From an uncultured Gammaproteobacteria bacterium (GTDB taxonomy: Bacteria > Patescibacteriota > Microgenomatia > Woykebacterales > RBG-16-39-9b), in contig CAYIWY010000001.1 of the NCBI GenBank assembly GCA_964367355.1, positions 100,340 through 164,339 of the forward strand: a stretch of 64,000 nt of DNA, read 5' to 3'. The notes beneath the pieces were generated by a model, which worked only from the letters and a program-made list of their open reading frames with translations, was not told where the DNA came from and made no database searches. The position numbers and the translations under genes are program-made. This document shows, one piece after another, positions 651 through 48,342 of this stretch (position 1 is its first letter; every line of letters starts with the position of its first letter).

Positions 651-1010
651 TTATACCAGATTAATTTTATCATCAAGTTTTATTGAAAATTTCTCAATTG
701 AGTGAGTAGGCATTTCCAGAACATATTTTGCTTGCCAAACAATTGGCGAGATTCTGAACGGTTTTAGATAACTAACCAATCTTATTATATGCATATTTTT
801 ATCAAGAAAAACTAAATCCATTGGGAAACGTACAAAGAATGTGTGAACTGAGTTGGTATTTGTTAATAGTAAACCATTGAAGTCTCCAAAACTTTTCCAA
901 CCAATTACTCCAATACCAATACTAATAATATCGTTGGCTTGTTTTATTTTCGTCAAATTGACTTTACTCATGCTAATTAATAATACCAGATTGTTGACAG
1001 TTAGCTTCAA
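651..1010 (-). CDS. DUF192-family protein with N-terminal signal/TM
   Basis: The FPMDLVFLDKNMHII and AKYVLEMP motifs resemble the DUF192 core (iPLDiiFlD ... yVLEl). Confidence 0.55.
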   Translation of the reverse strand: MKLTVNNLVLLISMSKVNLTKIKQANDIISIGIGVIGWKSFGDFNGLLLTNTNSVHTFFVRFPMDLVFLDKNMHIIRLVSYLKPFRISPIVWQAKYVLEMPTHSIEKFSIKLDDKINLV

Positions 1011-1022
1011 GCTGTATATAAT
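994..1022 (+). promoter_or_regulatory. Consensus sigma70 promoter (TTGACA-17 nt-TATAAT) for the str operon
   Basis: TTGACA lies at 994-999, an exact 17-nt spacer follows, and TATAAT lies at 1017-1022, about 40 nt upstream of rpsL. Confidence 0.7.
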
Positions 1023-1063
1023 CGGTCAGCTACCAGAATTAGGTAGTTTTTTGAACGTAAATT

Positions 1064-1483
1064 ATGCCTACTATAGCACAACTTATACGCAAGGGGCGTA
1101 AAAAAACATCAAAGAAAGTGAAGGCGACTGCGCTTCGGGCAAGTTTTAATGCCAAAGACCGCCGGCCAGTTTCAACATTCAACCCGCAAAAACGGGGAGT
1201 TTGTGTAGTGGTAAAGACAATGACTCCAAAAAAACCAAACTCTGCTTTACGAAAAGTTGCACGTGTTAGATTATCAAATCGTAAGGAAGTGACAGCCTAT
1301 ATTCCAGGAATTGGCCACGAATTACAAGAGCATTCTATTGTTTTAGTTAGAGGCGGACGTGTCAAAGATTTACCTGGTGTAAAATACCACATTGTTCGTG
1401 GGCATTTTGATGCTTCTGGAGTACAAAATCGTAAACAAGGTCGTAGTAAATACGGAGCTAAAGCAATGAAAGAGAGTAAATAG
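1064..1483 (+). CDS. rpsL: 30S ribosomal protein S12. It is 139 aa and has an insertion near the N-terminus.
   Basis: [11 protein letters not shown] ... [11 protein letters not shown] ... [17 protein letters not shown]. Confidence 0.95.
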
Positions 1484-1550
1484 ATCGCTTCGCGCTCTGC
1501 GACTAGGAAGTCTAAATTATTAATGAGATAAATAGTTAGTTTAGGAAATT

Positions 1551-2027
1551 ATGCCAAGAAGTGGACGTATAATTAAAAGAAAAATTGAACCAGACCCAAT
1601 TTACGGAAGTAGATTGCTCACTCGTTTTACAAACCGTTTAATGTTTGATGGTAAAAAAAGCACGGCCTCAAGAGTTATTTATTCTGCACTTGAGATGATT
1701 AAAGAAAAAAACCAAAATCCTCTCGAAGTTTTTGAAAATGCTTTGAAAAACGTATCTCCTAGAATGGAAGTTAAATCCAGGCGTGTTGGCGGAGCCAACT
1801 ACCAGGTTCCAATGGAAGTTCGTGGAGACCGCAAAGAAGCCTTAGCGATTCGTTGGATTATTACTGCTGCCGACAGTCGGCCAAGTACTGAGTACAAAAC
1901 CATGGCTGCTAAACTAGCAGCTGAGTTTATGGATGCAGCCAACAACACTGGTGTTGCAATCAAGAAAAGAGATGATACTCACCGAATGGCGGAAGCGAAT
2001 AAGGCGTTCTCTCATTTTCGCTGGTAG
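1551..2027 (+). CDS. rpsG: 30S ribosomal protein S7
   Basis: S7 signature; lies in the str operon. Confidence 0.95.
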
Positions 2028-2108
2028 CGAAAACTCGCTGCCGCCTTGCATTTTGGCTGCGCCAAAAAGTAAAGCTTAGCAGACTAACACCAAGGGGGGT
2101 GTTTTTTG

Positions 2109-2354
2109 ATGGAAAATAAACAAGCAGAAGAAAAGTTAAAAGATTTTGAAAAACTTGTCGAAGATAAGAAAACAGAATCAGAAAAATCTACTTTTCTGCA
2201 AGGATTGGGGGATAGGAGCAACTTACCTTGGCACCAGCAAGACTGGCCAATCGAGACGATAGCTAGGAAAAGTTTACTAACGGCAATAATTATAATGGTA
2301 GTTGGTTTTATCGTCGTAGCGTTATTGGTCGCAATTTTTAACTGGAAATATTAA
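2109..2354 (+). CDS. Small hypothetical protein with a C-terminal TM helix, inserted between rpsG and fusA
   Basis: The SD aaggggggtg lies 8 nt upstream of the ATG. The product is a charged N-terminus followed by one hydrophobic helix. I recognise no homolog. Confidence 0.45.
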
Positions 2355-2359
2355 ATTTT

Positions 2360-4480
2360 ATGGCAAAAGAAGTTACGCTTGATAAGATTCGAAATATTGG
2401 AATTATTGCTCATATTGATGCCGGGAAAACCACGGTGACTGAACGTATCCTTTTTTATACTGGAAAAACTTATAAAATTGGTGAAGTTCATGAAGGTGCT
2501 GCGGTTATGGATTGGATGGCACAGGAACGGGAACGTGGTATCACGATTACCTCAGCGGCCACAACAGCCTTTTGGACTACCAATGTCGGTCCAAACAAAG
2601 ATCAAAAACACCGTATTAATATAATTGATACTCCTGGGCACGTCGACTTTACCGCCGAAGTTGAGCGTTCACTAAGAGTTCTCGACGGCGGTGTTGTCGT
2701 TTTTGATGGTAAAATGGGAGTTGAGCCGCAGTCCGAAACTGTTTGGCGTCAAGCCGACAAGTATCACGTCCCACGAGTTTGTTTTGTTAATAAATTAGAT
2801 GCTATTGGCGGTGATTTTTATATGTCGCTCGATTCGATTAAAGAGCGTCTTGGTGCTAACGCTCATCCGATTCAACTTCCAATTGGGGAAGAAAACGGCT
2901 TTAAAGGTTTGGTCGATTTAATCCGCCGCAAAGCTTTAGTCTATACGGAAGACATGACCAAAGATCCAGAGGAAGTTGAAATCCCAGCCGATATGAAGGA
3001 AAAGGTTGAAGAGTATCGTTCAAAACTGGTTGAAGCAGTTGCCGAGCAAAACGACGACCTACTGGAAAAATATCTTGGTGGGCAAGAATTAACCGAAGAG
3101 GAAATTGTCAAAGGTTTACGCGCTGCAACGGTTAATTACAAAATTGTACCAGTCCTTTGCGGATCAGCTTTGAAAAATAAAGGGGTTCAGCCGCTTCTCA
3201 ATGCTGTTGTAGACTATCTTCCCTCACCGCAGGAATTACCGGCAGTTAAGGGAGAAAATCCTAAAACTGGAGCAGAAGAAGAAAGAAATACTGATGATAA
3301 TGAACCGTTTTCGGCCTTTGCTTTTAAAGTTATGACCGATCCGTTTGTGGGACGATTAACATATTTCCGAGTTTACTCTGGAAGTATTACTGCCGGTTCT
3401 TACGTCTATAATTCAACTAAGAATTCAAAAGAGCGTTTAGGTCGTATTCTTTTAATGCATGCCAATAACCGCGAAGATATTACCGAAATCAATGCTGGAG
3501 AAATTGGGGCAGCCGTTGGTTTGAAAGATACTTTCACTGGAGATACTCTTTGCGACGAAGCAAAACCAATTGTTTTGGAAAAAATTACTTTTCCCGAACC
3601 GGTTATTTCACTAGCAATTGAGCCAAAGACAAAGTCCGATCAAGAGAAAATGGGTATCGCCCTGTCAAAACTTTCTGAAGAGGATCCAACCTTTACTGTC
3701 AAAACTAACCAGGAAACAGCGCAGGCAATCATTTCTGGAATGGGTGAACTACATTTGGATATTATTGTTGATCGAATGAAGCGAGAATTTAATGTCGAAG
3801 CCAATGTCGGGCGTCCGCAGGTTGCCTATAAAGAAACGATCCATAAAATTGCCCAGGGTGAAGGTAAGTATATTAGGCAATCTGGAGGTCGAGGTCAGTA
3901 CGGCCATTGTTTAATTCGAGTGGAGCCTAAAGCACGCGGTGAGGGCTACGAATTTGTTTCTGAGATTGTTGGTGGAACAATTCCAAGAGAATTTATCAAC
4001 CCGATTGAAAAAGGGGTTAAGGAAGCCATGGACACCGGTGTCTTAGCTGGTTACCCAATGGTTGATATGAAGGTTGCAGTTTATGATGGTAGTTACCATG
4101 AGGTTGACTCGAGCGAATTTTCTTTCAAAATTGCAGGGAGTATGGCTTTGAAAGATGCTACCAGAAGGGCCGATCCGGTTATACTTGAGCCAATCATGAA
4201 AATCGAAGTCGTAACCCCGGAAGACTTCTTGGGAGATGTTATCGGGGATTTATCAAGTAAACGAGCGCAAATCGAAGGTAATGAACCGCGCGGAAATGTA
4301 CGGGTTGTGAAGGCTCAAGTACCACTTGCGGAAATGTTTGGTTATGTCACTACACTTCGAAGCATGACTCAAGGTCGGGCAAGTTCTAATATGGAACCGT
4401 CGCACTATCAAGAGGCACCGACTAGTGTTGCAAATGCAATAATAGCTAAAAATACCAAAGGCGAAAACAGCTCTGGTTAA
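2360..4480 (+). CDS. fusA: Elongation factor G
   Basis: AHIDAGKTT and DTPGHVDF GTPase motifs; 706 aa. Confidence 0.96.
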
Positions 4481-4633
4481 ACAAAGCTGGTTAATTGTTG
4501 ACTTGATCTGGTAAAATGTCTTCGGTTAATTACTTGTTGCTACTAGCAACATAACAGTTGTTGTGATAGAATAGCTTCGTCCTGAAGCTAGGTCAGTTAT
4601 TAAAATTATTAAAATTGTCAGGAGGAATTTTAC

Positions 4634-5824
4634 ATGGCAGAATCAAAGAAATTTGAAAGAACCAAGCCGCACGTTAATGTTGGAACTATTGGGCATGTTG
4701 ATCACGGTAAGACCACATTGACCGCTGCAATTACTAAAGTATTGGCCGACAAAGGTATGGCTGATTTTCGTGCCTTTGATAGTATTGACAACGCTCCAGA
4801 AGAGCGCCAGCGTGGTATTACGATTGCTTTAGCTCATGTTGAGTACGAAACTGAAAAAAGACATTACGCCCACATTGATGCTCCGGGACACGCTGATTAT
4901 GTTAAGAACATGATTACCGGTGCTGCTCAAATGGATGGAGCAATTCTCGTTGTATCTGCAGCTGATGGTCCGATGCCACAAACCAGGGAACACATCTTGC
5001 TTGCTAAACAAGTTGGAGTTCCAGCAATTGTTGTTTTCATGAACAAGTGTGACACGGTTGATGACAAAGATCTTTTGGACCTTGTTGAAGAAGAAATTCG
5101 AGAGCTTTTGACAAAATATGAATACCCTGGAAAAGATGTACCTGTAATTCGTGGTTCAGCCCTAAAAGCACTTGAAGGTGACGCTGAAGCAGTCAAAGGA
5201 ATTGAAGAGTTAATGAGTAAAGTTGATGACTACATTCCTACTCCAGTACGAGAACTTGATAAGCCTTTCTTGATGCCAGTTGAAGATGTTTTCTCAATCA
5301 AAGGACGAGGAACTGTTGTCACGGGAAGAATTGAACGTGGTAAGGTGAAAGTAAACGAAACAGTTGAAATCGTTGGAATTAGACCAAAAAGCACAAACAC
5401 AGTTGTTACTGGAGTGGAAATGTTCCGCAAACTTCTTGATGAAGGCCAAGCCGGCGACAATGTTGGTTTACTACTTCGTGGTATTGAAAAAGACGATGTT
5501 GAACGCGGTCAAGTAGTTGCAGCACCAAACTCAATCAAACCACATACCGAATTTGAAGCTGAAGTTTATGTTTTGACTAAAGAAGAAGGTGGACGTCACA
5601 CCCCATTCTTTTCTGGTTACCGACCACAGTTTTATCTTCGAACAACCGATGTAACTGGTGAAACTACACTAGCTGAAGGAACAGAGATGGTGATGCCTGG
5701 TGATAACACTAAAATGAAAGTCAAACTTATTGGACCGATTGCTCTTGAAGAAGGTTTAAGGTTTGCTATCCGAGAAGGCGGTCACACTGTCGGAGCTGGA
5801 GTTATTACAAAGATTATTGCTTAA
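4634..5824 (+). CDS. tuf: Elongation factor Tu
   Basis: [18 protein letters not shown] and NKCD motifs; 396 aa. Confidence 0.97.
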
Positions 5825-5850
5825 GAAAAGAGTAAGACCAACAAAATTTT

Positions 5851-6159
5851 ATGGCAAAGGGTCGTATTAGAGTACGTTTAAAGTCATATGATAGCCGAGT
5901 CATCGATGACTCTGCAGAAGAGATTTTGGATACCGCTATCCGCACTGGTGCAAAGGTAGCAGGTCCTGTTCCTCTACCAACCGACAAAGAGCGGTTTACG
6001 GTAACCACTTCTCCCCACGTAGATAAAGATGCTCGTGAGCAGTTCGAAATTCGAACTCACAAGCGGCTTATTGATATTATCGAGCCAACACCAAAAACCC
6101 TTGATGCACTTATGCATCTTGAACTACCAGCCGGTGTCGATATTGAGATAAAGATGTAA
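5851..6159 (+). CDS. rpsJ: 30S ribosomal protein S10
   Basis: [10 protein letters not shown] ... S10 signature. Confidence 0.95.
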
Positions 6160-6162
6160 CCG

Positions 6163-6215
6163 TCAAAAACGGTTTTTCTTTTAGAAAAAGCCTAAAAAAG
6201 GCTTTTTTCTTTTCG
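6163..6215 (+). terminator. Two tandem terminator-like hairpins with T-runs between rpsJ and rplC. They may be an attenuator.
   Basis: aaccgtcaaaaacggtttttctttt and aaaagcctaaaaaaggcttttttctttt. Confidence 0.5.
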
Positions 6216-6262
6216 GGAAAATATGTAGATCTCTAAAGAGCTCTGCATTTAGTAAGAACAAA

Positions 6263-7042
6263 ATGTTGAAAGCATTGATTGGGAAAAAACTAAATATGTC
6301 ACAGATGTTCGACTCGCATGGTCGGGTAACTCCAGTGACAAAAATAAAGTTTGAGCCAAATGTTATCGTAGCCTTAAAAGAGAAAGAAACCGATGGTTAC
6401 AAAGCAGTACAGATTGGTTCTGGGAATTCTAGGAAAGTGACAAAGTCTTTACAAGGACACTTTGATAAGGCCAAATTAGTTAACAAACCTAGAATATTGA
6501 AAGAAGTTAGTTTTGATGGTGAATTGAAACTTGGTCAGGAAGTAATAATCGAGGAGGTTTTTCATAAAGGCGCTTTGGTTGATGTTGTCGGTAAATCTAA
6601 GGGTAAAGGATTTGCTGGTGTAGTAAAAAGACATGGTTTTCATGGAGGTCCAAAGACCCATGGTCAGTCCGATCGTCATCGTGCTCCAGGGTCAATCGGT
6701 TCGGGAACTACTCCCGGACGTGTTATGAAGGGTTTAAAAATGCCTGGTCATATGGGAGACGAGCGAGTAAGCATTTTCGGATTAGAAGTAATGCAAGTTG
6801 ACAAAGATGAGAACATTTTGGTTGTAAAAGGTTCAGTCCCTGGTCCAACTGGTGCTGTTGTTTTAGTGAAAAAATCAAAGAAGAAGAAAGCAGACTATCA
6901 CGAACCAGAAATTCCAGCCATGCCTACTATTGGTGGGAGTACAGAAGAGGAAAAACCAGCTGAAAACCAGGAAATTTCTACTGAAAATAAAGCTGTAGAG
7001 GTAAAAGTGGAAGAAACAAATACTGAAAAGATTAAGGAATAA
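6263..7042 (+). CDS. rplC: 50S ribosomal protein L3 with a C-terminal extension of about 50 aa
   Basis: LIGKKLNMSQMF ... L3 core, followed by a Lys/Glu-rich tail. Confidence 0.93.
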   Translation: MLKALIGKKLNMSQMFDSHGRVTPVTKIKFEPNVIVALKEKETDGYKAVQIGSGNSRKVTKSLQGHFDKAKLVNKPRILKEVSFDGELKLGQEVIIEEVFHKGALVDVVGKSKGKGFAGVVKRHGFHGGPKTHGQSDRHRAPGSIGSGTTPGRVMKGLKMPGHMGDERVSIFGLEVMQVDKDENILVVKGSVPGPTGAVVLVKKSKKKKADYHEPEIPAMPTIGGSTEEEKPAENQEISTENKAVEVKVEETNTEKIKE

Positions 7043-7061
7043 ATTAATATAATCTAGAACT

Positions 7062-7084
7062 TATATCTCGCTAAAGCGTGATAT
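7062..7084 (+). promoter_or_regulatory. Conserved hairpin tatatcTCGCtaaaGCGtgatat (followed by tttgaagac) 12 nt upstream of rplD. Sister copies lie upstream of rpmC at 10717-10739 and rplE at 11861-11884.
   Basis: Three near-identical copies lie inside the r-protein operon, each just 5' of a start codon. Confidence 0.55.
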
Positions 7085-7096
7085 TTTGAAGACAAA

Positions 7097-7816
7097 ATGG
7101 AAAAAAAGATTACAGCAGTAAAAAAGAAAATAACAAAAGAAGCAAAACCAAATGAAGGTAAAGAAGTTGTCAAGAAAAAAACTCCCTTTTCAGTTGAGGT
7201 TTTTGATATCTTCGGAAAAAGTGTTGATCAAATTGAACTCTCACGAGAGGTCTTTGGAGTTAAACCAAACAAAGACTTGATTGCCCAGGCAGTTAGAGTT
7301 TTTTTAGCTAACCAAAGAGAAGGTAATGCAGATACAAAAGTACGTGGAGAAGTTCGAGGAGGCGGTCGCAAACCGTGGAAACAAAAAGGTACTGGTAGAG
7401 CTAGAATTGGATCCACGCGTGCCCCACATTGGCGAGGCGGAGGAGTTACTTTTGGACCAACACCAAGAGATTTCTCATTAAGTTTACCTAAAAAAATGAA
7501 AAAAGCAGCTTTAATTTCTGCTTTGTCGGCAAAGTTTAGTGATAAAGCCATAGTAGTGTTAAAAGACCTTAAATTTAAAGAAGCAAAAACAAAGGAAGCA
7601 GTAGCGATGTTAAAGAATTTAAATATTAAAGAAAAAAACATGATTGTGGCAACAAGTTTTGATAATACCGAAAAACGAGCTTTGGCAAACTTAACCAAAA
7701 CAAAAATACAAAGAGCCAGTGATCTAAATGTTTACGAGGTACTTAATAATAAAAAGATGTTAATAACAAAAGAGGCCGTTGGAAAAATTGAAGAAATCTT
7801 AAAAGGCAAGGAATAG
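7097..7816 (+). CDS. rplD: 50S ribosomal protein L4 with a Lys-rich N-terminal extension
   Basis: L4 core GGGRKPWKQKGTGRAR. Confidence 0.93.
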   Translation: MEKKITAVKKKITKEAKPNEGKEVVKKKTPFSVEVFDIFGKSVDQIELSREVFGVKPNKDLIAQAVRVFLANQREGNADTKVRGEVRGGGRKPWKQKGTGRARIGSTRAPHWRGGGVTFGPTPRDFSLSLPKKMKKAALISALSAKFSDKAIVVLKDLKFKEAKTKEAVAMLKNLNIKEKNMIVATSFDNTEKRALANLTKTKIQRASDLNVYEVLNNKKMLITKEAVGKIEEILKGKE

Positions 7817-7818
7817 TT

Positions 7819-8112
7819 ATGGATGTGAGCAAAGTAATTGTTAAACCAGTCTTAACGGAAAAATCCTTAAAAGATGCTTCTCGTGGCGAGTATACATTTG
7901 TCGTTGACAAAGATTCTTCAAAAAGCCAGATCTTAAGGGCAGTAAAAGAATTATTTAAGGTTGATGTGCTATCAGTTAGTACAAGAACAACCAAAGGTAA
8001 ATCTAAAAGAGTTTTTAGAACTAGAGTTAGAACTACTTTGGGACCGATCAAAAAAGCAACCGTAAAAATTGGTAAGGATCAGAAGATAGATATATTTGAG
8101 GTAAAAAGCTAA
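7819..8112 (+). CDS. rplW: 50S ribosomal protein L23
   Basis: Position and L23 signature. Confidence 0.9.
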   Translation: MDVSKVIVKPVLTEKSLKDASRGEYTFVVDKDSSKSQILRAVKELFKVDVLSVSTRTTKGKSKRVFRTRVRTTLGPIKKATVKIGKDQKIDIFEVKS

Positions 8113-8936
8113 TGGCTATTCAAAGAATTGGTGGGAATACCCCATCGAATCGTTTTGCAACGAGGGTAAAAGAAAATATTTCAAAAAAGCGGCCGGAGAA
8201 ACGGTTAACTTCAGCTTTACCAAAAACCGGTGGTCGTGACGCATCTGGTCAGGTTAGTGTGCGTCAAATTGGCGGTCGTCACAAAAGACTTTATCGCGAG
8301 ATTGATTTTAAAAGAAATAAGTTTGATGTAGCCGGTAAGGTTGTTTCGGTCGAATATGATCCAAACAGAACCTGTTTTATTGCCCAAGTTAATTATATAG
8401 ACGGTGAAAAGAGATATATTCTTGCTCCGTTGGGTCTCGAAATTGGAGTGGAGGTTGTTTCTGGAGAAAAAGTTGAGATCAGGATGGGAAATGCCATGCC
8501 TTTGAAGAACATTCCTGTTGGGACGGTTATTCACAATGTCGAGCTTATTCCAGGGAGAGGAGGAGCGATCGTTCGTTCCGCTGGGGCAAGTGCAACGTTG
8601 ATGGCAAAAGAAGGTGGTTTTGCACACTTGCGTTTACCTTCAACTGAGGTAAGAAAAGTTAGTGTTAATTGTATGGCGACAATTGGAAGTTTAGGAAACC
8701 TTGATTGGAAAAACATAACTCTTGGAAAAGCTGGACGAAGTCGCAGAATGGGTATTCGCCCGACTGTTCGAGGAGTCGCCCAAAACCCAAGTAGCCACCC
8801 ACACGGTGGAGGAGAAGGCCGTTCCGGTATCGGAATGAGTTCTCCTAAAAGTCGCTGGGGTAAGAAAACATTGGGAAAGAAAACAAGGAATAAGAGAAAA
8901 AGTAATAAATTAATTGTCCAAGGAAGGAAACGATAG
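8112..8936 (+). CDS. rplB: 50S ribosomal protein L2
   Basis: GRNN..GR.T...RGGGHKR-like core; [11 protein letters not shown]. Confidence 0.95.
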
Positions 8937-8937
8937 A

Positions 8938-9222
8938 ATGTCTAGATCGCTAAAAAAAGGTCCTTATGTGGACGCGAAACTTTTGAAAAAAGTGAAAAAA
9001 GCAAAAGAAGAGAACTCAAGAACTGCAATTAAGACTTGGGCTCGTTCTTCCCAAATCTCGCCAGACATGGTTGGTTTGAATTTCTCAGTGCATAACGGCA
9101 AGAATTTTATCAATGTTTTTGTAACTGAACCGATGGTTGGGCATAGACTTGGAGAGTTTTCTCCGACTCGTAATTTCAGAAGCCACGGTAGAATTACTGA
9201 CAGAACTGTAACGCCAACCTAA
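8938..9222 (+). CDS. rpsS: 30S ribosomal protein S19. The start is the ATG at 8938, not the track's 8914.
   Basis: [12 protein letters not shown] ... The SD aggaagga lies upstream, and rplB stops at 8936. Confidence 0.93.
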
Positions 9223-9232
9223 GGAGTAAACT

Positions 9233-9571
9233 ATGAGCGAAATAATTGCTGAAGCAAAAAATGTTAGGATCTCGGCCAGAAAAGCCCGTTTGGTTGGGGA
9301 AACCTTATCAGGTAAAAACGCCTTATCTACACTCGAGACTTTAAAGTACGAACCTAGAAAAGCTGGACTTATGATAGCTAAAGTATTAAAATCAGCAATC
9401 GCGAACGCAACTAACAATAATAAGCTTACAGATAAGAAATTGGTTATTAAACAAGTAATCATAAACGAAGGCCAGGATTTAAAAAGAGCAAGACCAAGAA
9501 GTCGAGGTATGTCACATCCTATTCTTAAAAAGAGCAGCCATATAAGAGTAATTTTAGAAGAGTCAAAATAA
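9233..9571 (+). CDS. rplV: 50S ribosomal protein L22
   Basis: Position and L22 signature. Confidence 0.9.
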   Translation: MSEIIAEAKNVRISARKARLVGETLSGKNALSTLETLKYEPRKAGLMIAKVLKSAIANATNNNKLTDKKLVIKQVIINEGQDLKRARPRSRGMSHPILKKSSHIRVILEESK

Positions 9572-9619
9572 TATGAAGAAATATTTAGTAATAAGTAAAA
9601 AGAAAGGTTTTTGTTAATA

Positions 9620-10258
9620 ATGGGACAGAAAGTTAATCCAATAGCCTTTCGGCTTTCGTTAAATAAAGATTGGTCAAGCAAATGGTTTGCTGAAAAAGGT
9701 CGTTATAAAGAACTTTTGGCGATGGATATTAAAATTCGGGAGTTTGTTATGAACAAGCTAAAACCTGCTGGTGTTAGTCGATTGGTAATTGAGCGATCAA
9801 TAAATAAAATTAACGTTATTATCCATGTTTCCAGACCAGGTATGGTTATTGGAAGATCTGGAGCTGGAATTGAGGAAATAAGAAAAGAGCTAGAAAAAAT
9901 GGTTGGTCAAAAAATTTCTGTTAACGTTGAAGAAATCAAAAGACCGGATTTAAATGCTTATCTTGTAGCTCGAGGAATTGCCGACCAAATTGAAAGACGA
10001 ATGCCAGTAAAGAGACTTATGATTCAGTCGTGTGATCGAGTAATGCGTTCAGGGGCACGCGGTGTAAAGATTATTTGTTCCGGAAGATTAGGCGGGTCCG
10101 AAATAGCCCGATATGAAAAACGATCTACTGGAAGTATTCCGCTGCATACTCTGAGAGCTGATATTGATTACGCAGCAGTTCCAGCAAAAACTTTGACAGC
10201 CGGTATTACCGGTGTAAAGGTTTGGATTTACAAGCCAGCAGAAAAGGAAGGTAATTAA
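9620..10258 (+). CDS. rpsC: 30S ribosomal protein S3. The likely start is ATG 9620 (MGQKVNP).
   Basis: [14 protein letters not shown] domain. Confidence 0.93.
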
Positions 10259-10299
10259 AGGAATATGGCGGTCGCTTCGCGAGCCGCATAATAAGAATT

Positions 10300-10713
10300 A
10301 TGTTGCAACCTAAACGAGTAAAATTTCGTAGGCAGTTTCGGGGCTCTAGAGATGGGGTTGCTACTCGTGGTGCTAATATCGAGTTCGGAGATTTTGGATT
10401 AAAGACAATGGAATCTGGTTGGGTTACGGCTCGTCAAATCGAAGCGGCCCGTCGAGCAATGACACATCACACAAAACGTGGTGGGCGTATTTGGATTAGA
10501 ATTTTTCCTGATAAACCAGTAACCAGAAAACCACTGGAAACACGAATGGGATCTGGAAAAGGTGCAGTTGACCATTATGTTGCCGTCGTAAAACCAGGGA
10601 CTATTTTGTTTGAAATGGGTGGTATCGAGAAAAGCGTTGCTCAAGAGGCAATGCGTTTGGCAGGAAGAAAAATTGCTCTTAATTTAAGATTTATTGATAA
10701 AAACGAAATTTAG
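10300..10713 (+). CDS. rplP: 50S ribosomal protein L16
   Basis: [12 protein letters not shown] ... Confidence 0.95.
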
Positions 10714-10753
10714 AATTATATGCCGCTAAAGCGTCATATTTTAGAAGACTAAA

Positions 10754-10954
10754 ATGAAGAAAATAGATTTACAAGGAAAAAATATTGAAGAACTAAGAAA
10801 AGATCTCAAAGACGAGCAGAAAGCTTTATTTGATCTTAAGATTGAAAACGCTTTGGGGAAATTGAAAAACGGTAAAAGTATTGGTTTTAACAAAAGACAA
10901 ATAGCTAGGCTAAAAACCGAAATTACAAACAAGGAGTTAATTAATGCGAGGTAA
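10754..10954 (+). CDS. rpmC: 50S ribosomal protein L29
   Basis: Position and size (66 aa); coiled-coil. Confidence 0.88.
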   Translation: MKKIDLQGKNIEELRKDLKDEQKALFDLKIENALGKLKNGKSIGFNKRQIARLKTEITNKELINAR

Positions 10955-11177
10955 AGTGGTTAGTACAAAAATGAATAAAACAGTAATTGTAGAAGTGGAA
11001 CGATTAGTTGTTCACCCGATCTACAAAAAAAGAGTTAAAAAAACCAATCGTTTCGCCGCACACAACGAGGTTTTAGTTAAAGTTGGTGATACTGTTGAAA
11101 TTGCAGAGACTAAGCCATATTCAAAAACTAAGAAGCATAAAGTTGTGGCGGTAATTGATACAAGGAACAAAAAATGA
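10944..11177 (+). CDS. rpsQ: 30S ribosomal protein S17
   Basis: GKVVSTKMNKTVIVEVER ... Confidence 0.93.
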   Translation: MRGKVVSTKMNKTVIVEVERLVVHPIYKKRVKKTNRFAAHNEVLVKVGDTVEIAETKPYSKTKKHKVVAVIDTRNKK

Positions 11178-11542
11178 TTCAAAATAGAGCAATGATAAAT
11201 GTAGCAGATAATAGTGGTGCAAAAATCTTACAGATGATAGGGCAACCAGGTCGAAGTCGTCAAAGGTGGGCAATTTTAGGTGAAGTGGTAACTTGTGTTG
11301 TCAAAAAAGCCGATCCAAATGGGACAGTGAAAGACGCTGAAATTGTAAAAGCAGTTTTGGTGAGAACCAGAAAAGAGAATAGACGAGTCGATGGCTCTTA
11401 TGTACGTTTTGATGATAATGCTGCCGTTATAATCGATAAAGATGGTAATCCAAAAGGAACACGTATTTTTGGACCAATTGCCAGGGAAATTCGAGACCGA
11501 GGTTTCTTAAAGATTGTTTCTTTAGCTCCGGAGGTAGTCTAA
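11174..11542 (+). CDS. rplN: 50S ribosomal protein L14
   Basis: [17 protein letters not shown]. Confidence 0.95.
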
Positions 11543-11544
11543 AA

Positions 11545-11850
11545 ATGAAGCTTAAAATTGGTGATGAAGTCTTGGTTGTTTCCGGACGCGAAAAAGGAAA
11601 AAAAGGAAAAATCGAGAAAATAATACCAGATCTAAACAAGGTTGTGGTTACGGGAATAAATCTTTACAAAAAAAATAAGAAAGCCTCAGGTAGTAATCAA
11701 AAGGCAGGAATTATTGACATTATTAAACCTCTTCCTGTAGCAAACGTAATGTTTCTTTGCCCAAAGTGCAAACTGTCAGCCCGACTTGGGTTTACGGTTA
11801 AAAATAACGAAAAAAGTAGAGTTTGTAAGAAATGTGATCAGATAGTTTAG
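11545..11850 (+). CDS. rplX: 50S ribosomal protein L24 with a C-terminal CxxC...CxxC motif
   Basis: KOW domain KIGDEVLVVSGREKGKKGKI; C-terminus CPKC ... CKKC. Confidence 0.92.
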   Translation: MKLKIGDEVLVVSGREKGKKGKIEKIIPDLNKVVVTGINLYKKNKKASGSNQKAGIIDIIKPLPVANVMFLCPKCKLSARLGFTVKNNEKSRVCKKCDQIV

Positions 11851-11895
11851 AGCGGAATAAAATATCCCGCTAAAGCGTGATATAAATAATAATTT

Positions 11896-12441
11896 ATGAA
11901 AGTCTTGGAAAAATACGAAAGCAAAGTAAAAGAAAACCTAAGCAAAAACTTTTCAATAAGCAATATTTTTGCATTGCCAAAAATTGACAAAGTAGTTTTA
12001 AACGTTGGTTTTGGCAAATCAAGTTCTGATGATAAAGCTATAGAGCAAATAGCCAGTGATTTAAACAAAATAACTGGCCAAAAACCATCAGTTCGCAAAG
12101 CACGAAAAGCAATAGCGGCCTTTAAGTTAAGAGCCGGCCAACCAATCGGTGCTCAGGTTACTTTACGAAAAAAGAAAATGTACGACTTTTTGGATAAACT
12201 AACGGCAATAGTTTTACCAAGAGTTCGTGATTTTCGCGGCGTTTCCGAAAAATCCTTTGATGGTAGAGGCAACTACACACTTGGGTTTCGGGAAATTAAT
12301 GTCTTTCCTGAAATTGAGTACACAAAGAACGATAAGCAAAATGGGGTGGAAATAACAATAGTAACTAGCGCAAAAAATGATGAAATAGCTAAAGCATTGT
12401 TGGAAGGAATTGGTATTCCTTTCCGAAAGGCACAAGAATAA
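11896..12441 (+). CDS. rplE: 50S ribosomal protein L5
   Basis: L5 signature. Confidence 0.93.
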
Positions 12442-12626
12442 TGGCTAGATTGGCAATGATAGTAAAAGCAAATAAACCGTCTAAATTCCCAGTTCGGGAC
12501 AAAAACCGCTGCAGTCAATGCGGACGTTCTCGAGCCTATATTAGAAAATTTGGAGTTTGCCGAATATGTTTTCGACAACTTGCCCACAAAGGAGAATTAC
12601 CAGGTGTAATTAAAGCCAGTTGGTAA
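12441..12626 (+). CDS. rpsN: 30S ribosomal protein S14, type Z (zinc-binding, 61 aa)
   Basis: [22 protein letters not shown]. Confidence 0.93.
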
Positions 12627-12656
12627 CATAATTATCAATTATTTAAGAGGAAAAAG

Positions 12657-13046
12657 ATGACAGACCCAATTGCAGACATGTTAACAATAATTAGAAACGG
12701 ATACGCTGCTTCGAAGGAAGAAGTTACTGTGCCGTTTTCAAAATTAAAAAAAACCCTTGCTGATAAACTTTTGGCGATTGGTTATCTTGATTCTGTAAAG
12801 GAAGATAAAGTGAATGAAAGAAAAACTATTCGTATTGGTTTGAAATATGAAAAAGGCGAACCTGAAATTCAAGGTATTAAGAGAATTTCTAAACCTGGTC
12901 TAAGAATTTATCGTGGTAAAACCAAGATTCCTTATGTTTTAGGAGGTTTAGGTTATGCGATTATTTCTACCAGTGAAGGTTTGCTTACTGATCAAGAAGC
13001 AAGAAAAAAACAAGTGGGCGGAGAAATTATTTGTGAGGTTTGGTAA
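12657..13046 (+). CDS. rpsH: 30S ribosomal protein S8
   Basis: TDPIADMLTIIRN. Confidence 0.95.
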   Translation: MTDPIADMLTIIRNGYAASKEEVTVPFSKLKKTLADKLLAIGYLDSVKEDKVNERKTIRIGLKYEKGEPEIQGIKRISKPGLRIYRGKTKIPYVLGGLGYAIISTSEGLLTDQEARKKQVGGEIICEVW

Positions 13047-13057
13047 GGAAAAATAAG

Positions 13058-13600
13058 ATGAGTAAAATCGGTAAACTACCAATTAAATACGAAAACAACG
13101 CTCAAGTTTTACTTGAAAGAAATAATCTTAAAGTTACTGGACCGAAAGGTACTTTAGAGTTAAATCTCCCAGGTGAAGTTAAAGTAAACATTAAAGATAA
13201 TGTGATTTCTGTTGTTCGAAAAGATGACGCTGACAGATCAAAAGCAATGCATGGTTTAATTAGAACTTTAATTGCAAATATGATTGAAGGAGTGACCAAA
13301 GGTTACGAAAAAACACTGGAGATTTCTGGGGTGGGTTTTCGCTCTGCGGTCCAAGGATCAAAACTAGTTTTAACCGTAGGTTACTCTCATCAGGTTGAGA
13401 TTGAAGCGCCAGAAGGAATTACTTTTCGTACAAATGAAAACAAAATTACCGTTTCTGGTTTCGATAAACAATTGGTAGGAGAAATGGCAAGTAAAATAAG
13501 GAAAGTAAGACCAGCAGAACCCTACAAAGGAAAAGGAATAAAATACGAAGGTGAGGTTATTAGACGAAAGGCTGGTAAAGCTGGAAAGGCTGCGGCATAA
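13058..13600 (+). CDS. rplF: 50S ribosomal protein L6. The start is at 13058 (MSKIGKLPI).
   Basis: L6 signature; the SD aaggaaaaa lies upstream. Confidence 0.92.
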   Translation: MSKIGKLPIKYENNAQVLLERNNLKVTGPKGTLELNLPGEVKVNIKDNVISVVRKDDADRSKAMHGLIRTLIANMIEGVTKGYEKTLEISGVGFRSAVQGSKLVLTVGYSHQVEIEAPEGITFRTNENKITVSGFDKQLVGEMASKIRKVRPAEPYKGKGIKYEGEVIRRKAGKAGKAAA

Positions 13601-13603
13601 AAA

Positions 13604-13951
13604 ATGAAAAATTCAAAAATTAGGTTAGAAAAAAGACATTTAAAAATAAGAAGTATTATTAAAGGAACAAAGGATCGTCCAAGATTTGTAGTTTTTCGTT
13701 CTAATGCTCATATTTATGGAATGTTAGTTGACGATAAAACCGGTAAGACAGTAATTTCTGTTGCAGATAAGACGATAACTAAAAAAGACTTAACAAAAAC
13801 AGAAAAAGCCAAAGAAGTTGGGAAATTGGTTGCAGAAAAAGCCGCCAAAGAAAAAATAAAAAATGTGGTTTTTGATCGAGCCGGTTATTTGTATCATGGG
13901 CGAGTAAAAGCTTTAGCAGAAGGTGCTAGAGAGGGAGGATTGAAATTTTAA
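13604..13951 (+). CDS. rplR: 50S ribosomal protein L18
   Basis: Position and signature. Confidence 0.9.
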
Positions 13952-14499
13952 TGGATTTTAGAAGACCAATGGATAATTATTATCAAGACAGCGAATTTCA
14001 GGAAAAAATAATTCAAGTTAGTCGCGTTTCGAAAAAAACTAAAGGAGGAAACAAAATTGGTTTTTCAGTACTTGTTGTCGTTGGTGATAGAAAAGGTCAA
14101 GTTGGAGTTGGTTTGGGAAAATCACCAGAAGTTCAATCTTCGATAAAAAAAGCGGTTACTTATGCAAAAAAGCATTTGATCACAGTGCCGATGAATGGTA
14201 CTACAATCCCTCATCCAGTGAATATTAAACTGGGAGCAGCAAAAATAATGTTGAAGCCAGCTTCACCTGGGACTGGAGTTATTGCTGGAGGTGCTGTACG
14301 GGCGGTGACTGAGGCGGCTGGAATTCACGATATCCTTTCGAAAGTATTGGGAACTTCCAACAAAGCATCAAATGTTTATGCAACTCTTGCTGCGTTGAAA
14401 AGTTTACGTCCGGTTGAGGATTTGAAAATAAGAAGAGGAAAAAAGTTAGGAGAACAAGACAGAAAAAGTCAAAAAGACAAAGTTGAAGTCAAGGAATAA
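13951..14499 (+). CDS. rpsE: 30S ribosomal protein S5
   Basis: [24 protein letters not shown]. Confidence 0.94.
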
Positions 14500-14502
14500 C
14501 CT

Positions 14503-14973
14503 ATGGAATTAAACGAAATTTTAAAAATTAAAGGTACCCCAACTAAAAGAGTCGGACGTGGCGAGTCTTCTGGAAAAGGTAAAACTTCAGGAAAAGGTAA
14601 CAAAGGTCAGAAAGCCAGGGGTCGTGGAAAAGTTAGGCTTGGTTTTGAAGGCGGGCAGCTACCTTTAATTAAAAGGTTACCTTTTCGACGTGGGGTTGGA
14701 AATCATTTGGCAAAAAAGACTTTGACAATAACTCTTGACCAACTTTCAGTTTTTGATTCTGGCGATGTAGTCGACCCAAAAAGCTTAATCAAGAAAGGCC
14801 TATTGAAAAAATCTGCACGACCTGATTTTATTCGAGTTGTAGCTAAAGGGGAAATTGATAAGCCGTTAACTATAAAGGTAAGTTATACTAAAACAGCAAA
14901 AATAGCGATAGAAAAAGCCAAAGGAAATGTAGAAGCTATCAAGGAAGAAAAAGAGGAACAGATAAATGCTTAA
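14503..14973 (+). CDS. rplO: 50S ribosomal protein L15. It directly follows rpsE, so no L30 gene is present.
   Basis: L15 signature; 3-nt gap after rpsE. Confidence 0.92.
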
Positions 14974-16249: not shown

Positions 16250-16258
16250 CTTACCAAA

Positions 16259-16804
16259 ATGATTGTACTTGTTTTTGGGATTCAAGGTAGCGGTAAAAGT
16301 ACACACGCACATTTTATTGCGAATAAATTAAATATTCCTTACGTTTCAACTGGCGATCTTCTTCGAGAGATTGAAAAAGAACCAACTGAAACTGGGAAAA
16401 AAGTAAGATCCTTGATGGAAAAAGGAATGATAATACCTGACGAGATCACAGTACCAGCTTTGGAGAATTATTTAAGGGAAAATAATTTCGACGATAATTT
16501 TTTAATCGAAGGTTTTCCAAGAACAATGAAGCAGGTTGAAATGCTTAATCGAAAAGTCGATCTGGTATTTGAGATAGTTGTCCCGGAAGAAATAGCAATT
16601 AAGAGGTTAAAAGAACGAGGTCGGTATGATGATATTGAAGATTCGATAAAAACAAGATTAGAACTTTTTAAAGAGAAGACGTTGCCGGTAATAGAGCATT
16701 ACAAAAAAAGTGGGACTAAGGTACAAATCGTAAATAACGATAAAAGTATTGTAGAAGTTCAGAAAGAAATAGATGAGTTACTCAAAGACAAAACAAGAAA
16801 TTGA
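16259..16804 (+). CDS. adk: Adenylate kinase, short form without a zinc lid
   Basis: GIQGSGKST P-loop. Confidence 0.9.
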   Translation: MIVLVFGIQGSGKSTHAHFIANKLNIPYVSTGDLLREIEKEPTETGKKVRSLMEKGMIIPDEITVPALENYLRENNFDDNFLIEGFPRTMKQVEMLNRKVDLVFEIVVPEEIAIKRLKERGRYDDIEDSIKTRLELFKEKTLPVIEHYKKSGTKVQIVNNDKSIVEVQKEIDELLKDKTRN

Positions 16805-17519: not shown

Positions 17520-17560
17520 CTTTCTGTTAAAATAAACGCCGCACAACCAAAAGGTAAGTA

Positions 17561-17797: not shown

Positions 17798-17906
17798 AAA
17801 ATGTCGGTTTATATCGATCAGTATGAAGTTTATTAAAAACAAAATATTATTATATTACGATCGATATTTTTTAACTAAGAATCGTAGAATCTAAGGTTGT
17901 TAAAAC

Positions 17907-18020: not shown

Positions 18021-18023
18021 GCT

Positions 18024-18449: not shown

Positions 18450-18535
18450 TATTTATTTAATAAATTATACCTACGCTCGCGCGTGATGTAATTTAAAACC
18501 AGAAATAATAAAATTGATAGCAGAAATTTTTAATT

Positions 18536-18910: not shown

Positions 18911-18916
18911 AAATAT

Positions 18917-32816: not shown

Positions 32817-32938
32817 ACTTTTTTAAAGAACGAGGTTCGCAGAGCACTTTAGTGATCTACTTTGCGAAGCAATGAGGAGCAAAGCGATCTATTTTCACCA
32901 ACAGAACTTAAATAGGTTTATTTTGGTTGCTTAACTAG

Positions 32939-35017: not shown

Positions 35018-35164
35018 CGGTTGGTGAGTGAGGAACCTTTACCCTCAAATCAACTCTTTTAAAAACTGCAGGTCGCAGAGCGCGTAGCGATCTATTTTTG
35101 TTGGCTAACCTAAATACGTTGTTCGATTCTCGCGAAAGACAGTAGAGTTTGATATAATTTATGT

Positions 35165-48228: not shown

Positions 48229-48342
48229 TTTTGAGTCCCCGAAAAAATATAGATCGCTAAAGCGCTCTGCGCTTGAAGACAATCTTCGACCATAATATAA
48301 TAAAATTCTTAGTTTTTCAAAAACAACTTGCTAGACGATATA

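What the first reader, a model, noticed from the sequence alone, without database searches (positions are those of the whole stretch)
7062..7095. Conserved hairpin plus 'gaagac' element immediately upstream of rplD, rpmC and rplE inside the ribosomal super-operon
**Seen in sequence.** Three copies of a near-identical element sit 5-15 nt before start codons of internal operon genes:
- tatatctcgctaaagcgtgatattttgaagacaaaATG before rplD;
- tatatgccgctaaagcgtcatattttagaagactaaaATG before rpmC;
- aatatcccgctaaagcgtgatata ... ATG before rplE.

The first two are 36/39 identical. The core folds as atatc-N-CGC / taaa / GCG-N-gatat. Most other genes in the operon have ordinary SD sequences and no such element.

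**Inference.** These could be RNA processing sites (RNase Y is encoded nearby), internal promoters, or translational operators. Ribosomal protein L4 is a classic autoregulator, and rplD is one target. Their near-identity suggests a specific binding factor rather than generic structure.
Basis: seen in the sequence. Interest (0 to 1): 0.55.

Follow-up and report, generated by a model that had tools for sequence, protein, structure and literature searches.

The report
Dispersed hairpin repeat in ribosomal operon
The three near-identical hairpins before rplD, rpmC and rplE are real, but they belong to a small family of copied, patchily inserted stem-loop repeats found in several candidate-phyla-radiation (CPR) bacteria, not to a conserved ribosomal-protein control site.

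Summary
The window has at least six strong and three diverged copies of one hairpin design. The design is a 5-8 bp lower stem, a pyrimidine-pyrimidine mismatch, a 3 bp C-N-C/G-N-G upper stem, and usually a UAAA loop. Seven copies lie in spacers of the ribosomal superoperon, all in sense orientation.

The regulatory reading does not hold up. In relatives with 66-86% identical S10+L3+L4, the same gene junctions are mostly only 1-10 nt long and have no hairpin. The rplD copy survives in one relative and the rplE copy in another. The same 22-28 nt hairpin also occurs in other CPR-like metagenome contigs. There it sits before greA, recR, topA and a dehydrogenase gene, and sometimes runs antisense to the flanking genes. 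The greA site is empty in a close relative.

The sites match no Rfam family, no sigma-70 promoter pattern and no terminator pattern.

Best reading: a REP-like dispersed palindromic repeat that is copied as a cassette, evolves in concert, and is co-transcribed as an mRNA stem-loop. Any effect on mRNA stability or processing is inferred, not shown.

One thing remains unexplained. The hairpin is nearly identical across deeply diverged CPR lineages, which leaves room for a conserved binding factor.

Interest is modest.

The parts
7063..7084 (+). Type-A hairpin ATATC-T-CGC-TAAA-GCG-T-GATAT in the rplC-rplD spacer, ending 12 nt before the rplD ATG.
   Evidence: 37.1 bits. MFE -6.7 kcal/mol. Retained only in L083 among the relatives.
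7085..7096 (+). Tail TTTGAAGACAAA, the 'gaagac' part. It sits at the Shine-Dalgarno (SD) position and is weakly SD-like (AAGA). It is copied together with the hairpin.
   Evidence: The exact TTGAAGACAA occurs only at 7086 and 48273, both right after a hairpin. A TTTTG/CAAAA mini-hairpin has no meaningful stability, 0 to -1.2 kcal/mol.
10718..10739 (+). Type-A hairpin ATATG-C-CGC-TAAA-GCG-T-CATAT in the rplP-rpmC spacer, 14 nt before the rpmC ATG. It carries a compensatory G:C pair.
   Evidence: 38.1 bits. The junction is only 2-5 nt in L084, L085 and L112, and the genes abut or overlap in L111 and L115.
10740..10753 (+). Tail TTTAGAAGACTAAA, homologous to the rplD tail.
   Evidence: alignment.
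11862..11883 (+). Type-A hairpin ATATC-C-CGC-TAAA-GCG-T-GATAT in the rplX-rplE spacer, 12 nt before the rplE ATG. It has no gaagac tail.
   Evidence: 39.1 bits. The orthologous copy in L084 has a TGAA loop and a GATGT arm.
6223..6248 (+). Type-B hairpin ATGTAGA-T-CTC-TAAA-GAG-C-TCTGCAT in the rpsJ-rplC spacer, 14 nt before the rplC ATG.
   Evidence: 37.4 bits. The lower stem is conserved in L081, L083 and L085, each with a different apical part.
1480..1500 (+). Diverged type-B member ATAGA-T-CGC-TTC-GCG-C-TCTGC. It overlaps the rpsL stop codon and lies upstream of rpsG.
   Evidence: (13.4 bits, weak).
18463..18493 (+). Variant with family-type arms AATTATA...TGATGTAATT and a different apical stem and loop (TCGC), in the rpsM-rpsK spacer.
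   Evidence: (14.4 bits, weak).
32839..32860 (-). Type-B hairpin GTAGA-T-CAC-TAAA-GTG-C-TCTGC in a convergent spacer downstream of a PIN-domain toxin gene.
   Evidence: (30.7 bits).
35075..35095 (-). Type-B member ATAGA-T-CGC-TAC-GCG-C-TCTGC, 57 nt upstream of the gene at 34385-35017(-).
   Evidence: (17.9 bits).
48249..48282 (+). Type-B hairpin ATAGA-T-CGC-TAAA-GCG-C-TCTGC followed by TTGAAGACAA. It lies between two minus-strand genes, so it is antisense to local transcription.
   Evidence: (37.0 bits).

Best explanation
The elements belong to a family of short imperfect-palindrome repeats, REP-like in kind, carried by this CPR (Patescibacteria) lineage and some others. A cassette of about 22-40 nt gets copied into intergenic spacers. 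The cassette is a hairpin, sometimes with a short A/U-rich tail that supplies a weak AAGA Shine-Dalgarno-like box. In this genome it has colonised at least seven junctions of the str/S10/spc/alpha ribosomal superoperon.

Shown:
- The copies are multiple and share one structure, kept by compensatory changes.
- They are present or absent at identical gene junctions among close relatives.
- They also occur in unrelated gene contexts and in both orientations.
- Copies within one genome resemble each other more than they resemble their orthologues, which indicates concerted evolution or re-copying.

Inferred:
- Because they lie inside operons in sense orientation, they are transcribed and fold as RNA stem-loops 12-16 nt upstream of SD-poor start codons.
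- Their most likely effect is structural punctuation of the polycistronic mRNA. That means a barrier to 3'-to-5' exonucleases for the upstream segment, or a protective 5' stem after endonuclease cleavage (RNase Y is encoded at 45142-46647). They probably do not act as a gene-specific feedback operator.
- The copying mechanism is unknown. Transposition of single-stranded hairpin DNA by a trans-acting enzyme, or illegitimate recombination of whole spacers, would both fit.
For: Family and structure:
- The covariance model gives 6 window hits at 30-39 bits, and nothing at or above 23 bits in 927 kb of control ribosomal-operon loci.
- A looser structure scan gives 14 hits against 2.4 expected.
- On 16 copies, 88.6% of cells are paired against 18-64% for slid controls, and 6 of 11 pairs show double changes.
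- The pyrimidine-pyrimidine mismatch is never closed. A U.G wobble is present in 13 of 16 copies, which makes the sense strand fold better: -9.3 against -5.1 kcal/mol.

Insertion polymorphism:
- The rplC-rplD gap is 54 nt here. It is 6 to 10 nt, or an overlap, in L081, L084, L085, L116 and L118, 1-5 nt in L109, L111 and L115, and 33 nt without a hairpin in L112. Only L083 keeps the hairpin.
- The greA site carries two tandem copies in L103 but is empty in L121, whose GreA is 78% identical.

Unrelated contexts: the hairpin precedes greA, recR, topA, a 2-hydroxyacid dehydrogenase and others. It is antisense to the flanking genes in L094, L105, L121 and at window 48249.

Concerted evolution: all three window type-A copies read GATAT, whereas the orthologous copies in L083 and L084 read GATGT.

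Cassette copying: the whole rpmC spacer is homologous to the 3' 46 nt of the rplD spacer. TTGAAGACAA follows a hairpin at both of its two exact occurrences.

No matches to known signals: no Rfam family and no promoter-like or terminator-like match at the sites.
Against: - No transposase (RAYT or IS200-type) was found, but only 30 ORFs of a 64 kb window were scanned.
- The genome-wide copy number is unknown.
- The defining unpaired GTAG or CGTC tag of classical REPs is absent.
- The hairpin sequence is almost identical between lineages whose proteins are deeply diverged. The window's L4 is 51% identical to Woykebacteria L4, while the L103 contig has a GreA 64-71% identical to Woykebacteria. That is unusual for REP families and fits a conserved trans-acting factor better.
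- The orthologous hairpins in L083 and L084 are 20-21 of 22 identical to the window's, although their flanks have diverged beyond alignment. This suggests constraint on the hairpin.
- Orientation is biased towards sense: 17 sense, 4 antisense, 2 ambiguous. The counts are mine, taken.
- No transcript data exist for any RNA-level effect.
Confidence: 0.55

Rival explanations
1. The hairpin is a conserved cis-acting RNA signal, defined by its UAAA loop, Y.U mismatch and U.G wobble. A dedicated CPR protein or RNase would recognise it and mark cleavage, stability or translation start sites of many SD-poor cistrons. Its patchy distribution would then reflect regulatory turnover rather than mobility.
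For: - The 22-28 nt sequence is nearly identical across deeply diverged CPR lineages.
- The hairpin is conserved while its flanks diverge at the orthologous rplD and rplE sites.
- Orientation is biased towards sense, and spacing to the ATG is a consistent 12-30 nt in many copies.
- Features specific to one strand, the wobble pair and the never-closed mismatch, are preserved in both the type-A and type-B arms.
Against: - Closest relatives have empty sites at all three ribosomal junctions and at greA.
- Some copies are antisense.
- Loops and apical parts vary: TTC, TAC, TCGC, TGAA and loops of 13-17 nt.
- The downstream genes share no functional theme.
- No candidate factor has been identified.
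Confidence: 0.2
2. The hairpins are ribosomal-protein autoregulatory operators, for example L4 acting at rplD or S8 at rplE, that mimic an rRNA binding site.
For: The copies lie directly upstream of rplD and rplE, and related hairpins lie upstream of rpsG. In E. coli these are positions where S8 and S7 act; that comparison rests on established knowledge and was not tested here.
Against: - The same hairpin precedes seven different ribosomal genes and also greA, recR, topA and others.
- It is absent from the same junctions in 9 of 10 relatives.
- No Rfam ribosomal-leader family matches, even at E <= 5.
- A single small hairpin cannot mimic several different rRNA sites.
Confidence: 0.03
3. The hairpins are internal promoters, with the 3' arm TGATGTAAT / TGATATAAA acting as an extended -10 box. 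They would drive short-leader or leaderless transcripts of the downstream genes.
For: - The 3' arm resembles TGnTATAAT in many copies.
- In L103 the tandem copies sit in a divergent spacer that must hold the greA promoter.
Against: - The consensus scan flags none of the sites on the + strand, while the genome uses canonical promoters: TTGACA-17-TATAAT at 994-1022, plus others before infA and rpoA.
- The compensatory C:G to G:C variants destroy the TG dinucleotide yet keep the pairing.
- The best-conserved bases would fall in the promoter spacer, not in the hexamers.
- Some copies are antisense.
Confidence: 0.05
4. The hairpins are weak intrinsic terminators or attenuators that tune the read-through ratio between cistrons.
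For: - Two copies are followed by TTTT.
- True terminators in the window can also carry a TAAA loop, for example 31022-31043(-), GAGGCAACC-TAAA-GGTTGCCTC followed by T6.
Against: - None of the TAAA copies is flagged terminator-like; only the diverged 18472-18485 variant is.
- The rplE copy and nearly all metagenome copies are followed by AAAT or AATT, not by a U-tract.
- The stems are weak, -6 to -9 kcal/mol, with z-scores of only -1.4 to -2.4.
Confidence: 0.05
5. The element is a double-stranded DNA palindrome bound by a dimeric DNA-binding protein, such as an operator, a nucleoid protein site or a recombinase site.
For: - The sequence has dyad symmetry with 9-12 bp arms.
- It occurs in either orientation relative to the genes.
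Against: - Both arms change together within one genome, which a sequence-reading protein would not tolerate (C:G to G:C; the ATATC and GTAGA arm types).
- The conserved T.G and Y.Y positions break the DNA symmetry but are consistent features of a folded single strand.
- The central 4 nt, TAAA, are asymmetric and conserved on one strand.
Confidence: 0.07

Closest known systems
REP (repetitive extragenic palindromic) elements, including the GTAG/CGTC-tagged families such as SMAG (Di Nocera et al. 2013, PMC3733652)
   Same: - Imperfect palindromes of 20-40 nt.
- Multiple copies per genome, confined to spacers between genes, including spacers inside operons.
- Insertion polymorphism between relatives.
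- Plausibly transcribed and acting as RNA hairpins.
- An internal mismatch kept as a conserved feature.
   Different: - There is no unpaired GTAG or CGTC tag. The GTAG/ATAG of the type-B copies is base-paired inside the stem.
- No inverted doublets (REPIN/BIME) were seen.
- No RAYT gene was found in the sequence available.
- Most copies sit just upstream of start codons rather than downstream of genes.
- The sequence is conserved across much deeper lineages than is usual for REP families.
Sub-terminal imperfect hairpins of IS200/IS605-family elements, recognised as single-stranded DNA by Y1 (HUH) transposases
   Same: - A hairpin of about 22 nt with a conserved mismatch.
- Strand-specific features.
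- An orientation bias that could follow the direction of replication. This last point is recalled from established knowledge and was not tested.
   Different: No transposase ORF, no left-end/right-end pair and no conserved cleavage tetranucleotide were identified. The copies are solitary.
E. coli ribosomal-protein autoregulatory mRNA sites (S10 leader with L4; spc operon site at rplE with S8; str intercistronic site with S7)
   Same: The location, in spacers of the same ribosomal operons immediately before rplE and rpsG, and near rplD.
   Different: - One and the same hairpin precedes many different genes.
- It is not conserved in close relatives.
- It is also found at non-ribosomal genes.
- It matches no Rfam leader family.
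Intercistronic stabiliser or processing stem-loops in polycistronic mRNAs, such as the REP in malE-malF and the RNase Y-dependent cggR-gapA processing
   Same: Small stem-loops between cistrons of one transcript, in sense orientation, without a U-tract. This is the mode of action I infer.
   Different: No transcript-end or half-life data exist for this organism, so the analogy is functional only and untested.

Membership tests
REP / GTAG-CGTC tagged palindromic repeats | Imperfect palindrome of 20-40 bp that folds as a stem-loop | tested here: met
   22-28 nt; 11 pairs; 88.6% of cells paired; compensatory changes.
REP / GTAG-CGTC tagged palindromic repeats | Unpaired GTAG or CGTC tetranucleotide at one end (PMC3733652 abstract) | tested here: not met
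   Type-A copies start ATAT or TTATAT. Type-B copies start GTAG or ATAG, but those bases pair with TCTGC inside the stem.
REP / GTAG-CGTC tagged palindromic repeats | High copy number, strictly extragenic | tested here: inconclusive
   Six strong plus three diverged copies in 64 kb, all intergenic. The whole genome was not available.
REP / GTAG-CGTC tagged palindromic repeats | Cognate RAYT (Y1 transposase) gene in the genome, flanked by the repeats | tested here: inconclusive
   No Y1_Tnp or other transposase domain among 30 window ORFs scanned against Pfam. The rest of the genome was not seen.
REP / GTAG-CGTC tagged palindromic repeats | Frequent inverted pairs (REPIN/BIME) | tested here: not met
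   Copies are solitary, or in one case a direct tandem (L103).
Ribosomal-protein leader / operator (Rfam r-leader families; S10 leader, S8-spc, S7-str) | Match to a curated covariance model | tested here: not met
   No relevant Rfam hit at gathering score or at E <= 5 over 900-19800.
Ribosomal-protein leader / operator (Rfam r-leader families; S10 leader, S8-spc, S7-str) | Conservation at the same operon position in related genomes | tested here: not met
   The rplD site is kept in 1 of 10 relatives. The rpmC site is kept in none of the 6 relatives that cover it. The rplE site is kept in 1 of 6.
Ribosomal-protein leader / operator (Rfam r-leader families; S10 leader, S8-spc, S7-str) | Binding by the encoded ribosomal protein, through mimicry of its rRNA site | not testable with these tools
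   No rRNA of this organism is in the window, and no binding assay is possible.
Sigma-70 promoter | -35 and -10 hexamers with 16-18 nt spacing | tested here: not met
   None of the hairpin sites is listed on the + strand, while 994-1022 scores 12/12.
Intrinsic terminator | G+C-rich stem followed by a U-tract | tested here: not met
   The TAAA copies are not flagged. Tails read TTTG, TTTA, AAAT or AATT.

The most novel reading that the evidence does not exclude
The 28-nt hairpin 5'-AUUAUAUC-C-CGC-UAAA-GCG-U-GAUGUAAU-3' may be a CPR-wide RNA recognition element. It has an invariant pyrimidine mismatch and a U.G wobble. A conserved cellular factor, either an RNase or an RNA-binding protein, would read it. 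Genomes would gain and lose it as a portable module that sets mRNA segment boundaries or translation starts for SD-poor genes, including much of the ribosomal superoperon. That would be a new post-transcriptional signal specific to a phylum with reduced genomes.
Probability: 0.18. Interest if true: 0.65.

Novelty: new member of a known kind. Interest (0 to 1): 0.33.

Why it matters
If these are simply REP-like repeats, the result is a caution. Near-identical hairpins inside a ribosomal operon need not be operators, and comparing the gene junctions in relatives settles that quickly. It would also be, as far as my literature searches show, an undescribed small repeat family in CPR/Patescibacteria. 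These genomes are usually seen as streamlined and poor in repeats.

If the conservation across lineages reflects a trans-acting factor, the hairpin would give a handle on how these uncultured bacteria process or translate polycistronic mRNAs. That could be tested with existing groundwater metatranscriptomes.

Tried and rejected
- **Genome-contig scan with L4.** It returned only distant relatives, mainly Bacillota with some Omnitrophota and other MAGs (51% identity or less), because the conserved peptide KPWKQKGT dominated. It served only as negative-control sequence.
- **'gaagac' as the loop of a second hairpin (TTTTG-AAGA-CAAAA).** Rejected. The MFE is 0 to -1.2 kcal/mol, and GAAGAC is not enriched.
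- **Target-site duplications.** TTTAGAA flanks the rpmC copy and GAAATTT flanks the L103 copies. This is not consistent across copies and partly belongs to the extended palindrome, so it stays unresolved.
- **CGCTAAAGCT at 34326 and 35808.** These belong to a different repeat of about 110 nt related to tRNA-Pro, not to this family.
- **31022-31043(-).** An ordinary terminator that happens to have a TAAA loop.
- **Half-site search for a larger parent element with the same arms.** None found.
- **Viral contig scan.** No match.
- **Literature search for the sequence and for CPR repeats.** Nothing relevant.
- **Taxon names for the closest L4 relatives.** None available.
- **Comparison with the T3 promoter and lambda boxA.** Considered from memory only and dropped, because type A and type B do not share the resemblance.

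Full report
**Setting.** The window is AT-rich (38% G+C). Positions 1064 to about 22000 on the + strand carry a contiguous str/S10/spc/alpha ribosomal superoperon: rpsL, rpsG, fusA, tuf, rpsJ, rplC, rplD and so on through rpoA and rplQ. The closest named L4 homologues are 'Patescibacteria group' and 'Candidatus Woykebacteria', at only 51-53% identity. Short contigs identical to parts of the window come from Hainich groundwater assemblies (L095, L108, L119, L120). The organism is therefore an uncultured CPR bacterium.

The three elements are at 7063-7084, 10718-10739 and 11862-11883. They read ATAT[C/G]-Y-CGC-TAAA-GCG-T-[G/C]ATAT and end 12, 14 and 12 nt before the ATGs of rplD, rpmC and rplE.
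- CGCTAAAGCG with up to one mismatch occurs 9 times against 2.06 expected, and 0 of 100 shuffles reach 9.
- Copy 2 has a compensatory C:G to G:C change in the lower stem.
- The rplD and rpmC spacers are homologous from TAGAA to the ATG, with 3 substitutions and 2 indels.
- Each hairpin alone is only modestly stable: -6 to -7 kcal/mol, z-scores -1.4 to -2.4. The evidence for structure therefore comes from comparing copies, not from thermodynamics.

**The family is larger than reported.**
- A scan for the architecture alone gives 6 hits against 0.61 in shuffles. The architecture is a 5-bp lower stem, a 1x1 mismatch, a 3-bp upper stem and a TAAA loop.
- With loops of 3-5 nt allowed, the scan gives 14 hits against 2.4.
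- New members carry a second arm type, which I call type B: GTAGA/ATAGA pairing with TCTGC.
  - 6223-6248, before rplC, with upper stem CTC/GAG.
  - 32839-32860(-), with upper stem CAC/GTG.
  - 48249-48270(+).
  - The diverged 1480-1500 (rpsL|rpsG, loop TTC) and 35075-35095(-) (loop TAC).
- A variant at 18463-18493 (rpsM|rpsK) keeps the arms AATTATA...TGATGTAATT but has a different apical part.
- A covariance model built from 16 copies scores six window sites at 30-39 bits. It scores nothing at or above 23 bits in 927 kb of ribosomal-operon loci from other bacteria.
- On those 16 copies, 88.6% of cells pair, against 18-64% when the 3' partners are slid. Six of 11 pairs show double changes.
- Part of this signal is circular, because many copies were found with a fixed pattern or with a structure scan. 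The positions left free in the metagenome pattern are informative. Every AT-rich CPR-like hit pairs at column 9/22 (C-G or G-C) and keeps a pyrimidine at the mismatch. The other hits either mispair at 9/22 or close the mismatch with A-T.
- A U.G wobble at the same stem position occurs in both arm types. It makes the TAAA strand fold markedly better than its complement: -9.3 against -5.1 kcal/mol, and -9.4 against -4.7.

**'gaagac'.**
- The hexamer is not enriched.
- A TTTTG-AAGA-CAAAA mini-hairpin has essentially no stability.
- The exact 10-mer TTGAAGACAA occurs only at 7086 and 48273, each time 1-2 nt after a family hairpin. The second site lies antisense between two minus-strand genes.
- So the tail travels with the hairpin as one module. 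In front of rplD and rpmC it happens to sit at the Shine-Dalgarno position, as a weak AAGA box.

**Conservation test.** L4 homologues gave a graded series of relatives, whose contigs I fetched. Concatenated S10+L3+L4 identity to the window is 86% (L081, L083), 76-78% (L084, L085, L116, L118) and 69-71% (L109, L111, L112, L115).

| Junction | Window | Relatives |
|---|---|---|
| rplC-rplD | 54 nt, hairpin | 6 nt (L081), 8 (L084), overlap (L085), 10 (L116, L118), 1-5 (L109, L111, L115), 33 without hairpin (L112). Only L083 keeps the hairpin (ATATCTCGCTAAAGCGTGATGT), 45 nt from the ATG and without the gaagac tail. |
| rplP-rpmC | 40 nt, hairpin | 2 nt (L084), 5 (L085, L112), abutting or overlapping genes (L111, L115), 64 nt of unrelated sequence (L109). 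|
| rplX-rplE | 45 nt, hairpin | Only L084 keeps the hairpin, with a TGAA loop. L085, L109, L111, L112 and L115 lack it. |

Where a copy is retained, the hairpin is 20-21 of 22 identical while the flanks have diverged beyond alignment. All three window type-A copies share GATAT, whereas their orthologues read GATGT. This points to concerted evolution or re-copying within a genome.

**Other contexts.** A metagenome scan with ATATNNCGCTAAAGCGTNATRT returned 23 loci.
- Two are the window itself.
- About nine AT-rich contigs carry ATTATATC-C-CGC-TAAA-GCG-T-GATGTAAT in unrelated places:
  - two tandem 36-nt units before greA (L103);
  - inside a dnaX-ybaB-recR operon (L091);
  - before a 2-hydroxyacid dehydrogenase gene (L100);
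  - before topA (L105, a variant);
  - before other genes (L089, L097);
  - antisense to the flanking genes in L094 and L105.
- The L103 contig has a GreA 64-71% identical to named Woykebacteria, whereas the window's L4 is only 51% identical to Woykebacteria. The hairpin is therefore shared by deeply separated CPR lineages.
- In L121 (GreA 78% identical to L103's) the greA site is empty, although the upstream sequence is homologous. L121 instead has two hairpins elsewhere with the same arms (TATTATATC...GATGTAATC) and loops of 13-17 nt.
- So the arms are conserved, the centre is variable, and the sites come and go.

**What it is not.**
- No relevant Rfam family matches, at gathering score or at permissive E-values.
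- The promoter and terminator scan flags none of the TAAA sites. The same genome has a perfect TTGACA-17-TATAAT before rpsL and good matches before infA and rpoA.
- True terminators here have U-tracts.
- No transposase domain was found in 30 ORFs around the non-ribosomal copies. Those copies lie in a variable region rich in toxin-antitoxin pairs.

**Interpretation.** The evidence has four strands:
- a shared structure kept by compensatory changes;
- insertion polymorphism at identical gene junctions in two separate lineages;
- unrelated contexts and both orientations;
- cassette copying and concerted evolution.

Taken together they fit a dispersed family of imperfect palindromes of the REP kind best. 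I do not file it as a REP family in the strict sense. The unpaired GTAG/CGTC tag and the inverted doublets are absent (PMC3733652), and a RAYT could not be sought genome-wide.

Because seven copies sit in sense orientation inside one long operon, they must be part of the mRNA. The most plausible consequence is a stem-loop that punctuates the transcript as an exonuclease barrier or a protected end after cleavage. This step is inference.

The orientation bias is 17 sense, 4 antisense and 2 ambiguous, which gives a one-sided binomial of about 0.004, with the caveat that the copies are not independent. The strand-specific wobble pairs agree with this. Both features would also arise if a hairpin-specific single-strand DNA transposition mechanism followed the direction of replication, so they do not separate RNA function from the mode of spread.

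**What remains unexplained.** The sequence is almost identical across lineages whose proteins are about 50% identical. Selfish repeats usually drift with their host, so this argues for a conserved reader, either a transposase or a cellular factor. It is the basis of the 'novel case'.

**Verdict.** The operator and promoter readings are not supported. The processing reading is open. This is a new family of a known kind, of modest interest.

Noticed in passing
window 6160-6222 (rpsJ-rplC spacer); also L081, L083-L085, L109, L111, L112, L115, L116, L118: Right after the rpsJ stop there is a small hairpin with a T-run (CCGTCAAAAACGG TTTTTCTTTT). It is followed by a terminator-like hairpin, GAAAAAGCC-TAAAAAA-GGCTTTTTTC plus TTTT. 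The second hairpin is present in all 11 relatives examined (66-86% S10+L3+L4 identity). It matches no Rfam family. It could be a conserved attenuator separating tuf-rpsJ from rplC onwards, which would make it a better candidate for L4-type feedback than the reported hairpins.
   Followed up: partly
window 33700-38340 and 41823-41931: A repeat family of about 110 nt has copies at about 34267-34400, 35750-35875, 36420-36570 and 38215-38340. It resembles the 3' half and 3' flank of tRNA-Pro(GGG) at 41857-41931(-). It looks like serial att-site remnants of islands integrated at tRNA-Pro. The region holds PIN/MazE, ParE/Phd and PIN toxin-antitoxin genes, a DUF3800 gene and a C39 peptidase gene.
   Followed up: partly
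window 10265-10289 (rpsC-rplP spacer); L109 13164-13204: A different hairpin, ATGGCGGTCGCTTCGCGAGCCGCAT, lies 10 nt before rplP. It is shared with L109 (61% L4 identity), with changes only at bulged positions. It is absent from closer relatives, whose spacer is 3-7 nt. This is another patchy spacer hairpin.
   Followed up: partly
L109 rplV-rpsC spacer; L115 rpsS-rplV spacer (5721-5738): Mini-hairpins ATTATATG-AAGA-CATGTAAT and TTATG-AAGA-CATA use the same arms as the family but have only an AAGA loop. They lie in ribosomal spacers of more distant relatives.
   Followed up: no
window 994-1022: A perfect sigma-70 consensus promoter, TTGACA-17-TATAAT, lies 42 nt upstream of rpsL. This shows that this CPR organism uses canonical promoters.
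   Followed up: no
window 37474-37516, 38987-39029, 41408-41450 (and weakly 30889-30931): A repeated 43-nt element, TTTTACCACCAAAGTGCTAAAATGGCAGCT, contains a small hairpin with a CAAA loop. It overlaps or abuts the start of the + strand ORFs at 37505 and 38992 in the variable region. The context of the other copies was not examined.
   Followed up: no
window 11545-11850 and 6263-7042, 7097-7816: L24 carries a C-terminal CxxC...CxxC zinc-ribbon-like extension. L3 has a C-terminal lysine/glutamate-rich extension and L4 has an N-terminal one. The relatives share the same protein lengths.
   Followed up: no
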